64,000 nt of DNA from the human T2T-CHM13v2.0 reference genome, Homo sapiens, in NCBI RefSeq assembly GCF_009914755.1, contig NC_060928.1. One strand, given 5' to 3'. This document shows positions 36,201 through 39,200 of the stretch, piece after piece; the first letter of the stretch is position 1, and every line of letters begins with the position of its first letter. Below the pieces are notes generated by a model. The model was given only the letters and a program-made list of their open reading frames with translations, did not search any database and was not told where the DNA came from. Both the position numbers and the translations under genes were made by a program.

Positions 36201-39200
36201 ACCTGTGGGGCGAGCCACACTAGAGCTAGAATACCCCTCAGCTCCATGATGATGGTCAGGAGAGGGCAGCTTTGCTGGACCGCAGGGGGACTGGGCCAGC
36301 TCAAGCAGAATGACACCTGCTGCTTCCTGGTCCTGCAGGGGAACTTCTGTCCTCTGCCTGTCCCCTGAGGGAGCGTGGTGGCTTTTCACAGCAGCCCTAA
36401 CGGAGTCTCGCCGTGTTTCATTTCCAGACTGGAAGAAGCGCTTCATCGGCATACGGATGCGGACGATCACACCAAGGTGAGTGTCTGAAGAGTGCCATCC
36501 CCTGCTACCCCTTCCTCTCATCCCTCACCCTGACCCTCCCTCCAGACCCTGGCTGGCTGTGTTCGGCTCCTTGCAGGTGCCCAGACGGGCCGATGCACTC
36601 AGGCCTCTGACCGTTGCTCAGGCCAGTCCTTTTGCGTGGACCTTTCCCTCTTTGCCTTATAGATTCCTTCTGCTCTTTCAGGACGCTATCTCTTTCCATG
36701 GCTGCTATAACAAATTACTATAAGCCTGGTGGCTTAAAACAGCAGAAATGTGTTCCCTCTCAGTTCTGGAGGTCGGGGATCTGAAGTCAAGGGGTCGGCA
36801 GGGCTGCACTCTGCCTCTGAGGCTCCAGGGAAAGCTACTTCCTTGCCCCTTCCAGCTTCTGCTGGCTCCAGGCATCCTTGGCTTGTGGCTGCCTCCCTGC
36901 AGTCTCTACCTCTGTCTTCACTTGACCTTCTTTCTCTCTGAGTATCTGTGTGCACATCTCTCTCTCGTTTCTCTTATGAAAACATCCATCATTGGAGTTA
37001 GGGCCCACTCTAAACCAAGAAGGTCTCTTCTCAAGATCTTCAACTAATGACATCTATAAAGGTCCTATTTCCAAACAAGGTCACATTCTGAGGCTCTGGG
37101 TGTACACGAATTTGGGGGAACACCATTCTGCATTCCCAGGACACTCAAGTGGCAGAAGGTGCCTCCTCATAGCACACAGAGCCCTGGCCTCCCTCTCCAG
37201 CCTTGAACTCATCCTGCTGTGTCGGAATCACCTGTGGTGGGACCGCCCCACCCCATCCTGCCTCCTCGGCTGTCAGCTCCTTGGGAGCAAGGACTGTGAC
37301 CTACTTATTCCTCCACTCTGCCCCAAAAGCAGGTCCACTGCAGAGCAGGTGCCTGGAAATGCTGAATGAGTGCAAGAAAGAAGGGGCTGGGGGAGAGGAA
37401 GCAGGGGCAGGATAGAAGGGAGGCTGGAAGTACAAACTTGAGCTTCGAGGTTTGAAGAAGGGAGAGGTCACTGCATCGGGAGCCTAGGAAGAACTCGAGA
37501 ATGCTCAAGTGACCATTTCCTCAAAGCACACAGTCCCTAAAGCTGTCATTCCTCCTGTTTCACCAACTCTGCTAATCTAGGGGTGACATTTGAAAAAAAT
37601 TATCAATGTCCAGTATGCCAATTTATCTTTTGTTTTCTGTCTCTTTTATCTGTCTGTCCATCCCACCTCTGTCCAGTCTTCTGTCTGTCTGTTCCATGAC
37701 TCAGCATTGTCTGTTCATTCCATGACTCAGCATTGTCTGTCCGTTCCGTGACTCAGCATTGTCTGTACGTTCCGTGACTCAGCATTGTCTGTCCATTCCA
37801 TGACTCAGCATTGCCTGTCTGTCCATTTCTCCTTCTATCCACCCATCCAGCATCATTCCTTCATTCATCCATCCATCCATCCATCCATCCATCCTCCCGC
37901 CCCTCCTCCCACCTGTCTACCCACTCTCTCTCCTCTCTTCACGCTTCTAACCAGCTATTGCTACCACGTTTCTCTTAAGAAGCACATCTGGTAGGGGACA
38001 CAGAGTGGCCAGTGGTGGGACAGGGCAGTATGGGGGCCCAGAGGTGGCTCCTCTTCTGGTCTGGTGCTGGAGGGAGGGAGGGGCAGCTTCATACCAAAGA
38101 GCTGGGCAAAGGCTCAGGGGAGGGGCCTTGACGGCAGACTCTTTCCAGCCTGGTGGATGAGCTGAAGGCCAGCAACCCGGACTTCCCAGAGGTCAGCAGT
38201 GGAATTTATGTGCAAGAGGTTGCGCCGAATTCACCTTCTCAGAGGTAGGCTCTGCCAGAGGAGATCGCTCGAGGCATGGGGCAGGCGTGAGGTCTGGGCT
38301 GGGGCTGCCCCACTGACCTCATGTGACCTTGAGCTTCCCAGCAAAGTGACCGGGAAGGGGCAGGTGGATTCTAGCGTGTCTGCTAAGCCAGAGGAGGCTG
38401 GAGAGCTGAATGGTCCCTAGAGCCCTGACTGTGTACGTCCTAAGTCCCACAATGTCATTTCCTTCGAGAAGCAGAGGCTGAAGAGTCCCTGTTGGGCTAA
38501 GAACCCACTCCAAGCCAGACTCTTTCACTAGCTGGGGACCAGCCTGGGTCCTGGGTCTTTCTGGGACTCAGCTTCCTCATTGTAAAGTGGAGATAATTCA
38601 GCCTATTGTTTTTTTTTGTTTTTTTTTTTTTTTTTTTTGAGACAGTCTCCCTCTTGTTGCCCAGCCTGGAGTGCAGTGTCGCGATCTCAGCTCACTGCAA
38701 CCTCTGCCTCCTGGGCTCAAGCGACTCTCCTGCCTCAGCCTTCTGAGTAGCTCAGATTACAAGTGCCCACCACCATGCCCTGCTAATTGTTTTTGTATTT
38801 TTAGTAGAGAAGGGGTTTCACCATGTTGGCCAGGCTAGTCTTGAACTGCTGACCTCAGGCGATCCACCTGCCTTGGCCTCCCAAAGTGCTGGGATTTCTA
38901 CCCCCAGGAGACTTTGTAGATGAAATGGATAAAGGATTGCTTTCTTTGAAGTCTTCCAGTACTAGAGAAATGTTAAGCATTGCAACACCATAGGCTGAGG
39001 CAGGCGTGCAGCGACACTACCACATGCTGGCATGGCTGACCCACTCCCAAGAAGGGCTCTGAACCAGTTGCCTCCCCTCCTTAGCCTCGGTCTTCATCTG
39101 CAGTGGGAAAAATCCACATATAAGTGGACCCACACAGTTCAGACCCATGTTGTTCAAGGGCCGACTGTACTGTGCATCCTCAGAGGCTGGGCTTGAAGGT

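What the first reader, a model, noticed from the sequence alone, without database searches (positions are those of the whole stretch)
37690..37820. Tandem array of five perfect ARE/MARE sites in intron 7: a candidate repeat-built NRF2/BACH1 switch for HTRA3
Seen: a 26-bp unit repeated five times, each with RTGACTCAGCA followed by TT (37696, 37722, 37748, 37774, 37800). The motif is invariant apart from the permitted A/G, while spacer bases vary. Established: RTGA(C/G)TCAGCA is the CNC-sMaf element bound by NRF2, NRF1/NFE2L1, NF-E2 and BACH1, and it contains an AP-1 core; clustered elements of this type drive the HMOX1 enhancers. Inference: this is a multivalent oxidative-stress/heme-responsive enhancer 35 kb from the promoter, made by tandem amplification, so copy number could act as a dosage dial. 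The 26-bp period (about 2.5 turns) places neighbouring sites on alternate helix faces. I recall HTRA3 being described as BACH1/NRF2-responsive but cannot verify this here.
Basis: partly seen in the sequence, partly recalled or inferred. Interest (0 to 1): 0.85.

Follow-up and report, generated by a model that had tools for sequence, protein, structure and literature searches.

The report
Tandem BACH1/NRF2 sites in HTRA3 intron
A short tandem repeat inside the HTRA3 gene carries five identical docking sites for the stress regulators BACH1 and NRF2, and it is very probably the place where published experiments found these proteins bound on a gene that BACH1 keeps switched off.

Summary
In detail: a 26-bp x 5.3 minisatellite (37682-37819, HTRA3 intron 7) carries five exact RTGACTCAGCA sites. 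It is single-copy. It is one of seven loci in the T2T genome with three or more perfect tandem MAREs.

HTRA3 heads the BACH1-knockout RNA-seq table in A549, with a BACH1 ChIP peak "in gene" at +34,095 (PMC12314328). An independent NRF2 ChIP table has two peaks in "intron 7 of 8" (PMC6949066). Exon geometry places the second NRF2 peak, 145 bp from the BACH1 peak, in the last 621 bp of intron 7. There the array holds the only ARE cores.

Corrections:
- BACH1 repression is dominant. KEAP1 inhibitors, including sulforaphane, did not induce HTRA3 in H1299.
- Motif invariance is not evidence of constraint (P 0.12-0.30). Six of eight unit differences are CpG decay.
- Copy-number dosage is untested.

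No text I could search describes the repeat architecture. It is best filed as a new member of the multi-MARE enhancer kind.

The parts
37682..37819 (.). 26-bp minisatellite, 5.3 copies. The whole candidate BACH1/NRF2-bound element (T2T chr4:8283682-8283819).
   Evidence: TRF. Single-copy in the genome. The 999 bp around it are also single-copy.
37696..37706 (-). MARE 1 (ATGACTCAGCA on the + strand; TGCTGAGTCAT on the - strand).
   Evidence: Matches 12/12 to the HOMER Nrf2 consensus and 14/15 to the Bach1 and NFE2L2 15-mers (consensus strings).
37722..37732 (-). MARE 2 (ATGACTCAGCA). A TEAD-type CATTCC core abuts it at 37716.
37748..37758 (-). MARE 3 (GTGACTCAGCA). The R position is the G of a retained CpG (37747-37748).
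   Evidence: 11/12 to the HOMER Nrf2 consensus, 10/10 to Bach2.
37774..37784 (-). MARE 4 (GTGACTCAGCA). The R position is the G of a retained CpG (37773-37774).
37800..37810 (-). MARE 5 (ATGACTCAGCA). A CATTCC core abuts it at 37794.
37630..37681 (.). Upstream pyrimidine-rich low-complexity flank (TGTC/CTGT-like) that resembles the spacer half of the unit. Likely the substrate in which the unit was amplified.
   Evidence: 74% pyrimidine in 37600-37681.
37820..37894 (.). Downstream flank: a partial sixth unit without a MARE, then a (CATC)n simple repeat at 37837-37894.
   Evidence: 80% pyrimidine in 37820-37930.
36477..38148 (+). HTRA3 intron 7 (1,672 bp). Both published NRF2 peaks are annotated to this intron. 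Only 37528-38148 can hold the second one.
   Evidence: Hub annotation.
2531..3130 (+). HTRA3 exon 1 and TSS, the presumed target promoter about 35.2 kb upstream.
   Evidence: Hub annotation. The link to the array is inferred, not shown.

Best explanation
The array is a minisatellite-born cluster of five consensus CNC-small-Maf elements (MARE/ARE). It acts as the intragenic BACH1/NRF2 docking site of HTRA3.

In the resting state, BACH1-sMaf heterodimers occupy the five sites and hold HTRA3 off. Removing BACH1 (knockout, siRNA, BACH1 inhibitors or degraders, probably heme) frees the sites for activators. These would be NRF2-sMaf, possibly NFE2L1-sMaf, and AP-1 on the embedded TGACTCA core. The element then works as an intronic enhancer on the HTRA3 promoter about 35 kb upstream.

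Shown in print: BACH1 and NRF2 ChIP signal in this intron; strong BACH1-dependent repression of HTRA3; failure of NRF2 activation alone to induce it.

Shown here: five perfect sites, the only ARE cores in the intron, single-copy, and a rare arrangement genome-wide.

Inferred: that the array is the bound sequence; that it acts on the HTRA3 promoter; that multivalency explains BACH1 dominance and the size of the de-repression; and which activator takes over.

The motif-bearing unit probably arose by chance in a pyrimidine-rich simple-repeat tract, was amplified by slippage or unequal exchange, and was then co-opted.
For: 1. Sequence. There are five exact sites at 26-bp period. All five match the HOMER Bach2 10-mer 10/10. 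Three match the Nrf2 12-mer 12/12 and two match it 11/12. None reaches 11/12 on the palindromic MafK consensus, so they are heterodimer-type sites (consensus strings).

2. HTRA3 regulation (PMC12314328). HTRA3 is the first row of the RNA-seq table, with shrunken log2FC 3.76 in BACH1-KO versus WT A549. Its BACH1 peak is 'in gene' at Dist_to_Start +34,095, with WT signal 92-119, comparable to the 119-154 of the HMOX1 peak at -3,921. The text says NRF2 (GSE141497) binds each BACH1-bound region and that ARE motifs lie in these regions. [quoted passage not shown] FBXO22-KO lowers HTRA3, and BACH1 inhibitors induce it.

3. Independent NRF2 table (PMC6949066, hg19). Peaks at +32,899 and +33,950 are both annotated 'intron 7 of 8'.

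4. Geometry. The two peaks are 1,051 bp apart in a 1,672-bp intron, so the second must lie at window 37528-38148. In 36100-38450 the only TGAYNNNGC cores on either strand are the array's five. The BACH1 peak is 145 bp from the second NRF2 peak and 1,196 bp from the first.

5. Rarity. Seven loci genome-wide carry three or more perfect tandem 10-mers, and the reversed-pattern controls gave 0.

6. Other papers. Sulforaphane raised HTRA3 (2.52) in melanoma cells alongside SRXN1 and TXNRD1. A 2026 paper uses HTRA3 as a BACH1-inhibition read-out, with hemin among its control BACH1 inhibitors.
Against: - No base-level overlay was possible. The ChIP data are in hg19/hg38 and the window is T2T. The array centre is +35,220 here against +34,095 and +33,950 in print. 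The match requires T2T to carry 1,046-1,668 bp more than hg19 upstream of intron 7. That follows from the intron annotation if intron 7 itself is colinear, but I did not observe it.
- The stronger NRF2 peak (+32,899, score 66.9) must fall at 36477-37097, where T2T has no ARE or AP-1 core. So motif-less signal does occur in this very intron. Only 697 of 2,395 peaks (34.5%) in that data set carry the ARE.
- No deletion, reporter or chromatin-contact experiment links the bound region to HTRA3.
- KEAP1 inhibition did not induce HTRA3 in H1299, and no NRF2 loss-of-function was reported for HTRA3. The activator is therefore unknown.
- H358 and H1795 do not express HTRA3 detectably, and the signature fails in some cell types.
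- Sequence variation within the array gives no sign of selection.
- A review's summary of earlier BACH1 ChIP work cites preferred motif spacings of 7 or 21 bp. The 26-bp period fits neither.
Confidence: 0.75

Rival explanations
1. Bound bystander. BACH1/NRF2-sMaf do occupy the array, as they would any exposed perfect MARE, but HTRA3 repression by BACH1 runs through other elements or indirectly. Candidates are the promoter, the single MARE at 29611 next to a RefSeq enhancer and silencer, or the MARE at 50039 inside a RefSeq enhancer. The array would then be a neutral sink.
For: No causal experiment exists. Other perfect 10-mers lie at 29611 and 50039, next to or within RefSeq functional elements (hub annotation). 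RefSeq lists no functional element at the array. MARE-bearing minisatellites can arise by chance.
Against: Only one HTRA3 row appears in the merged ChIP/RNA table, and it is the +34,095 peak. Neither NRF2 peak listed for HTRA3 is in intron 6 or downstream of the gene. The gene heading the BACH1-KO table carries one of only seven such arrays in the genome.
Confidence: 0.12
2. Mainly an AP-1 (FOS/JUN/ATF) enhancer. Each site embeds a perfect TGACTCA TRE, so the array is chiefly a growth-factor or TGF-beta/AP-1-responsive enhancer. SMAD (GTCTG/CAGAC) and TEAD (CATTCC) cores in the spacer would help. BACH1 would act only as a competitor.
For: There are five TGACTCA cores. There are seven GTCTG/CAGAC cores in 166 bp against 0.46 expected from window density, and two CATTCC cores against 0.11. 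AP-1 and TEAD motifs are enriched in the A549 BACH1 peak set. This reading is compatible with the best explanation rather than exclusive of it.
Against: The sites extend to the full GCA flank that defines CNC-sMaf elements. None reaches 11/12 on the HOMER Jun-AP1 12-mer or 9/10 on the TEAD consensus strings. The short SMAD and TEAD cores are part of one amplified unit, so they are one event, not seven. No AP-1, SMAD or TEAD occupancy data were seen.
Confidence: 0.08
3. Inert minisatellite. The published peak lies elsewhere in the last 621 bp of intron 7, or the intron differs between hg19 and T2T, and the array has no regulatory role.
For: The mapping is indirect. A motif-less NRF2 peak exists in the same intron. 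There is no sign of constraint within the array.
Against: The paper states that ARE motifs lie in the BACH1-bound regions of all five top genes. The array holds the only ARE cores in 36100-38450. In the BACH1 peak set, 57.8% of 13,810 targets carry the known Bach1 motif against 0.46% of background.
Confidence: 0.04
4. RNA-level role. The repeat, transcribed within the pre-mRNA about 330 nt upstream of exon 8, acts as an intronic splicing element.
For: It lies in a pyrimidine-rich tract close to the exon 8 acceptor.
Against: No RNA family reaches threshold. The two sub-threshold Rfam hits in 36400-38300 lie outside the array. Nothing links the unit to a known splicing-factor motif, whereas the DNA-level explanation has direct ChIP support.
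Confidence: 0.01

Closest known systems
HMOX1 distal enhancers (E1 about -4 kb, E2 about -9 kb) with multiple MARE/StRE sites, repressed by BACH1-sMaf and activated by NRF2-sMaf
   Same: Both have several CNC-sMaf sites within roughly a nucleosome length. BACH1 repression is dominant over NRF2, with weak response to KEAP1 inhibitors in cells with high BACH1. HMOX1 and HTRA3 are co-regulated as a three-gene BACH1 signature. The BACH1 peak at -3,921 of HMOX1 has similar signal, and an NRF2 peak lies at -8,981.
   Different: The HTRA3 sites are near-identical copies at a strict 26-bp period made by tandem duplication. They are intronic, at about +35 kb, not upstream. Whether heme responsiveness and enhancer activity hold is not shown for this element. 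The internal anatomy of E1/E2 is recalled, not checked in any call.
[quoted passage not shown]
   Same: It is a natural head-to-tail duplication of a CNC-sMaf/AP-1 element that works as a strong enhancer core. NRF2 was cloned by its binding to it (title of Moi et al. 1994, seen in a reference list).
   Different: It has two copies rather than five (recalled), sits in an erythroid NF-E2 context, and is not a minisatellite with spacer units.
Engineered multimerised ARE reporters (for example 7-8 tandem AREs)
   Same: Same design principle. The ARE review reports constructs with 7 tandem repeats and with 8 copies, and states that copy number sets reporter sensitivity.
   Different: Those are artificial, promoter-proximal and read out NRF2 activation. 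The natural array is BACH1-dominated and distal.
Regulatory VNTRs/minisatellites whose units carry transcription-factor sites
   Same: The array has a 10-100 bp unit, sits at a single locus, and each unit carries a TF site, so copy number could scale occupancy.
   Different: Polymorphism and any expression effect are untested here. Examples of this class are recalled, not checked. The listing of the HTRA3 + VNTR search (5 papers) showed nothing relevant.

Membership tests
CNC-small-Maf binding element (MARE/ARE, CsMBE) | Core sequence RTGA(C/G)TCAGCA, equal to TGCTGA(G/C)TCAY on the other strand | tested here: met
   Five of five units match exactly. Bach2 10-mer 10/10 at five sites; Nrf2 12-mer 12/12 at three sites and 11/12 at two (consensus strings).
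CNC-small-Maf binding element (MARE/ARE, CsMBE) | Asymmetric heterodimer site (one Maf half with the GC flank, one CNC/AP-1 half) rather than a palindromic Maf-homodimer MARE | tested here: met
   No position reaches 11/12 on the HOMER MafK palindromic consensus.
CNC-small-Maf binding element (MARE/ARE, CsMBE) | Occupancy by BACH1 and/or NRF2 in cells | tested here: met
   This rests on published tables plus geometry. The BACH1 peak is at +34,095. NRF2 peaks are in intron 7. The second must lie at 37528-38148, where the array holds the only ARE cores. The mapping is indirect (hg19/hg38 against T2T); no summit-level overlay was done.
CNC-small-Maf binding element (MARE/ARE, CsMBE) | Occupancy by small Maf partners (MAFK/MAFF/MAFG) | not testable with these tools
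   No small-Maf ChIP table was available. The papers found do not report it for HTRA3.
HMOX1-type multi-MARE BACH1/NRF2 switch enhancer | Target gene de-repressed on BACH1 loss and re-repressed on BACH1 re-expression | tested here: met
   From the literature only: log2FC 3.76 in KO, plus 3 gRNAs, siRNA, reconstitution, a lung line panel and FBXO22-KO.
HMOX1-type multi-MARE BACH1/NRF2 switch enhancer | Induction by NRF2 stabilisation | tested here: inconclusive
   siKEAP1, SFN, CDDO and KI-696 gave no induction in H1299. SFN raised HTRA3 (2.52) in melanoma cells. No NRF2 knockout data exist for HTRA3.
HMOX1-type multi-MARE BACH1/NRF2 switch enhancer | Heme/hemin responsiveness | tested here: inconclusive
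   Hemin is listed among control BACH1 inhibitors in a panel where signature genes are said to be strongly induced by BACH1 inhibition (one passage). The figure itself was not seen.
HMOX1-type multi-MARE BACH1/NRF2 switch enhancer | The element itself is necessary or sufficient (deletion, reporter, promoter contact) | not testable with these tools
   No such experiment was found in the texts read.
Minisatellite / VNTR | Head-to-tail copies of a 10-100 bp unit at a single locus | tested here: met
   TRF gives period 26, 5.3 copies, 90% matches. The array and its 999-bp surroundings match only themselves in the genome.
Minisatellite / VNTR | Copy number varies between individuals | not testable with these tools
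   Only the T2T assembly was available. No other human or primate genome could be searched.
AP-1 TRE enhancer | TGA(C/G)TCA core | tested here: met
   Five TGACTCA cores.
AP-1 TRE enhancer | FOS/JUN occupancy and AP-1-dependent activity | not tested
   No data were seen. No position reaches 11/12 on the HOMER Jun-AP1 12-mer.

The most novel reading that the evidence does not exclude
MARE minisatellites may form a small, recurrent class of copy-number-variable, BACH1-dominant switches. The five-site HTRA3 array and a 46-bp x 8 array (99% identical units) lie at or near the two newly described BACH1 signature genes. The second array sits about 96 kb upstream of a giant open frame on distal 16q that may be ZNF469. 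On this reading, the number of tandem sites sets how completely BACH1 silences the gene and how steeply it is released. Repeat-length alleles would then give people different HTRA3 (and ZNF469) inducibility.
Probability: 0.2. Interest if true: 0.75.

Novelty: new member of a known kind. Interest (0 to 1): 0.5.

Why it matters

Pinning its regulation to a 138-bp element with five identical sites gives a compact natural test bed for an open question in the field: why BACH1 repression overrides NRF2 activation at some genes (HMOX1, HTRA3, ZNF469) but not at classical NRF2 targets.

If the repeat length is polymorphic, it would be a ready-made allelic series for site-number dosage. It would also be a candidate cis-variant for HTRA3 expression that SNP-based eQTL maps may miss.

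If the array proves to be only a bystander, the finding reduces to a curiosity of repeat evolution.

Tried and rejected
1. Motif invariance as a sign of purifying selection: rejected. P = 0.12 for all four variable columns missing the core. P = 0.30 for the two non-CpG changes. The A/G alternation at the R position is CpG to CpA decay.

2. Dispersed repeat or transposable-element origin: rejected at the sensitivity of the tool. The array and 999 bp around it match only themselves.

3. The 23-bp VNTR with nine TGASTCA cores (34816-35442) as the ChIP peak: rejected. It lies in intron 6, not intron 7, and its cores lack the GC flank.

4. The single MARE at 29611 as the peak: rejected. It is in intron 6, about 7 kb away.

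5. The first NRF2 peak (+32,899) as the array: rejected. The second peak, 1,051 bp further on, would then fall beyond exon 8, yet it is annotated intron 7.

6. Direct confirmation of hg38/hg19 coordinates from the literature: a number search returned only noise. My recollection that the hg38 gene span is about 1.1 kb shorter than the 38,532 bp in T2T fits the deduced 1,046-1,668 bp, but it rests on no call.

7. Prior art. Searches: HTRA3+VNTR; HTRA3+NFE2L2+intron; antioxidant response element+tandem repeat+NRF2+copy number; BACH1+tandem repeat+ChIP-seq+motif; Maf recognition element+tandem repeat. Judged from the search listings, plus passages of PMC6007815, none describes a natural MARE minisatellite or this element's repeat nature. 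The main text of PMC12314328 contains neither 'intron' nor 'tandem'.

8. Warnatz 2011 (BACH1 motif spacing): the paper is not held. I saw only a review's one-sentence summary.

10. Structured RNA: nothing at the array.

11. ZNF469 link of the chr16 46-bp array: unresolved. No long open frame lies at array -100 kb or at array +127 kb. A frame of at least 1,528 aa starts about 96 kb downstream of the array. No ARE lies at the position colinear with the published NRF2 peak.
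Full report
**What is there.** The sequence at 37682-37819 is a clean minisatellite with period 26, 5.3 copies, 90% matches and no indels. Each of the five full units carries an exact RTGACTCAGCA followed by TT, at 37696, 37722, 37748, 37774 and 37800. These are the only five matches in the 64-kb window, against 0.26 expected, and 0 of 100 shuffles reached five. 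The array sits in HTRA3 intron 7 (36477-38148), 330 bp upstream of exon 8 and about 35.2 kb from the annotated TSS. It is embedded in a pyrimidine-rich low-complexity tract. The upstream flank resembles the spacer half of the unit. Downstream there is a partial sixth unit without the motif, then a (CATC)n run. Neither the array nor the 999 bp around it matches anything else in the T2T genome, so it is a local tandem amplification, not part of a dispersed repeat. No RNA family reaches threshold at the array.

**How good are the sites?** I compared them with the HOMER consensus strings printed in the BACH1 paper's own motif table.
- All five sites match the Bach2 10-mer 10/10.
- Three match the Nrf2 12-mer 12/12, and two match it 11/12.
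- Two match the Bach1 and NFE2L2 15-mers 14/15.
- None reaches 11/12 on the palindromic MafK consensus.

They are therefore heterodimer-type CNC-sMaf sites, each with an embedded AP-1 core. The 26-bp period is 2.48 helical turns at 10.5 bp per turn. A review's summary of earlier BACH1 ChIP work mentions preferred spacings of 7 or 21 bp, which this array does not follow.

**Is the motif protected?** The units differ at columns 8, 9, 10 and 15 only. The chance that four variable columns all miss the 10-bp core is 0.12. Measured against the unit that keeps both CpGs, 6 of the 8 differences sit on the two CpG dinucleotides, including the A/G at the R position. The two remaining changes give P = 0.30 for missing the core. 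Within-array variation thus says nothing for or against constraint. Six of ten CpGs have decayed, which suggests the array is not a very recent expansion. This is an inference using recalled mutation rates, with wide error.

The five sites are one event amplified. A random 26-bp unit holds the 10-mer with probability of about 1e-4. With a recalled order of 1e5 minisatellites in the genome, a handful of such arrays is expected without selection.

**Rarity.** I scanned the whole T2T genome for three perfect TGCTGASTCA 10-mers in tandem.
- With gaps of 5-35 bp there are five loci: this one (5 sites), chr12:116474214 (3), chr16:71769568 (3; 20 bp x 2.9), chr17:39996153 (3; 24 bp x 3.2) and a chr16 subtelomeric VNTR (38 sites in the fetched locus).
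- With gaps of 36-66 bp, two more loci appear: a 56/57-bp VNTR near the 4q end, and a 46-bp x 8.0 array at chr16:94399357-94399725.
- The reversed-pattern controls gave 0 in all three scans.
- Mixed-orientation or wider-spaced clusters were not sought.

**What is published.** PMC12314328 (Redox Biol 2025; I read the abstract, sections 2.10, 3.1 and 3.2, word searches, and supplements mmc2-mmc4) combined BACH1 ChIP-seq with RNA-seq in A549 WT and BACH1-KO cells.
- HTRA3 is the first row of the RNA-seq table (shrunken log2FC 3.76) and ranks first by combined score.
- Its BACH1 peak is 'in gene' at Dist_to_Start +34,095, with WT signal 92-119. The HMOX1 peak at -3,921 gives 119-154.
- The text states that NRF2 (GSE141497) binds each BACH1-bound region and that ARE motifs lie in them.
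- HTRA3 was validated with three gRNAs, siRNA, BACH1 re-expression, a panel of lung lines (H358 and H1795, also named, did not express it detectably), HaCaT and FBXO22-KO.
- In H1299 it was induced by siBACH1, TBE56 and CDDO-TFEA. It was not induced by siKEAP1, SFN, CDDO or KI-696.
- No NRF2 loss-of-function test is reported.
- The main text never uses 'intron' or 'tandem'. Fig. 1G, which displays the motifs, and mmc5.pdf could not be read.

The NRF2 data set's own paper is PMC6949066. I saw passages and supplement file 4; it uses hg19 and 150-bp HOMER peaks. It lists two HTRA3 peaks, both annotated 'intron 7 of 8': chr4:8304313-8304463 (score 66.9, +32,899) and chr4:8305364-8305514 (score 46.8, +33,950). 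Sulforaphane raised HTRA3 (2.52) in melanoma cells. A 2026 paper uses HTRA3 as a BACH1-inhibition marker.

**Tying the peaks to the array.** The array centre is at +35,220 in T2T, about 1.1 kb more than the published distances, so this needs an argument.
- Both NRF2 peak centres lie in intron 7 and are 1,051 bp apart, and the intron is 1,672 bp here. If the intron is colinear, the first centre must fall at 36477-37097 and the second at 37528-38148.
- It follows that hg19 is 1,046-1,668 bp shorter than T2T upstream of intron 7.
- Length-unstable repeats lie upstream in intron 6: a 1.66-kb (ATCC)n at 27338-29000 and an 0.8-kb 23-bp VNTR at 34708-35516.
- My unverified recollection of the hg38 gene span gives a difference of about 1.1 kb.
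- Under the deduced range, the array centre in hg19 terms lies between +33,552 and +34,174. That range contains the BACH1 peak (+34,095) and the second NRF2 peak (+33,950), and excludes the first.
- In 36100-38450, the only minimal ARE cores on either strand, and the only TGANTCA cores, are the array's five.

The array is therefore the only sequence-based candidate for the BACH1/NRF2 peak. I rate this about 0.85-0.9.

The first and stronger NRF2 peak remains unexplained. Its allowed interval holds no ARE. Only 697 of 2,395 peaks (34.5%) in that data set carry the consensus.

**Mechanism and rivals.** The best reading (0.75) is a minisatellite-born five-MARE element where BACH1-sMaf sits and silences HTRA3. 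Loss of BACH1 frees the sites for activators (NRF2/NFE2L1-sMaf or AP-1), and the element then acts as an intronic enhancer. Binding and BACH1-dependent repression are shown in print. That the array is the bound sequence, that it acts on the HTRA3 promoter, and that multivalency explains BACH1 dominance are all inferred.

The rivals are:
- a bound bystander (0.12);
- a chiefly AP-1/SMAD/TEAD enhancer (0.08, and not exclusive of the best reading). The unit also carries GTCTG/CAGAC cores, and in two units CATTCC cores, but these are one amplified event;
- an inert repeat (0.04);
- an RNA-level role (0.01).

[quoted passage not shown] It also looks like a natural version of multimerised ARE reporters, for which a review states that copy number sets sensitivity. 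That HTRA3 is a direct BACH1 target with BACH1/NRF2 signal at this place is already known. The tandem-repeat architecture, its rarity in the genome and the copy-number hypothesis are not in any text I could search. I file it as a new member of a known kind, interest 0.5.

**Side observation.** The 46-bp x 8 array on distal 16q lies about 96 kb upstream of an open frame of at least 1,528 aa that starts at chr16:94495415. This may be ZNF469, the other new BACH1 signature gene, but its identity rests on recalled map position only. The published distances for ZNF469 are BACH1 at +100,072 'in gene' and NRF2 at -126,996. Neither fits under strict colinearity, so the link is open.

Noticed in passing
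window 34708-35516 (HTRA3 intron 6): A 23-bp VNTR with about 36.6 copies. Its consensus core is TGATTCA, and nine units have drifted to a perfect AP-1 core TGASTCA (34816-35442). This accounts for much of the window's excess of TGASTCA (26 found against 12.7 expected). The cores lack the GC flank, so they are not MAREs. It is a candidate AP-1 site cluster and a likely source of assembly length differences.
   Followed up: partly
window 27338-29000 (HTRA3 intron 6): A 1.66-kb (ATCC)n simple repeat with about 417 copies. It is a likely contributor to the 1.05-1.67 kb by which T2T exceeds hg19 upstream of intron 7.
   Followed up: no
window 29611-29620: A single perfect TGACTCAGCA, preceded by C rather than R. 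It lies between a RefSeq silencer (29192-29435) and a RefSeq enhancer (29641-30140), just upstream of the alternative terminal exon (29658-30441) of the short HTRA3 isoform. The NRF2 table has no peak there.
   Followed up: partly
window 50039-50048: A perfect TGCTGACTCA 10-mer inside a RefSeq enhancer (49247-50074), about 9 kb downstream of HTRA3.
   Followed up: no
window 36477-37097: The stronger of the two published NRF2 peaks in intron 7 (hg19 chr4:8304313-8304463, score 66.9) must fall in this interval. T2T has no ARE or AP-1 core there. A weak, sub-threshold Rfam hit (MIAT_exon5_3, E 0.043) covers 36505-36808. Unexplained.
   Followed up: partly
G000 C16:94399357-94399725 (L035 9357-9725): A 46-bp x 8.0 tandem array, 99% identical, with a perfect TGCTGAGTCA in each unit. 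It lies about 96 kb upstream of an open frame of at least 1,528 aa that starts at C16:94495415. It may be the ZNF469-assigned BACH1/NRF2 site, but the published distances (+100,072 and -126,996) do not fit under strict colinearity.
   Followed up: partly
G000 C16:96081182-96082385; C4:191792125-191796075; C12:116474214; C16:71769568; C17:39996153: These are the other tandem arrays of perfect MAREs in the T2T genome. Two are large VNTRs near chromosome ends: 38 sites in the fetched chr16 locus, and dozens of sites in a 56/57-bp unit on 4q. Three are small three-site arrays. Their nearby genes and occupancy are unknown.
   Followed up: partly
window 37683-37821: Each repeat unit also holds a GTCTG/CAGAC (SMAD-type) core, 7 in 166 bp. 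Units 2 and 5 hold a CATTCC (TEAD-type) core abutting the MARE, created by the CpG to CpA change. These are short motifs amplified with the unit, so the evidence is weak.
   Followed up: partly
window 30837-31075: Another minisatellite in intron 6, 25 bp x 9.6 copies, 73% matches.
   Followed up: no
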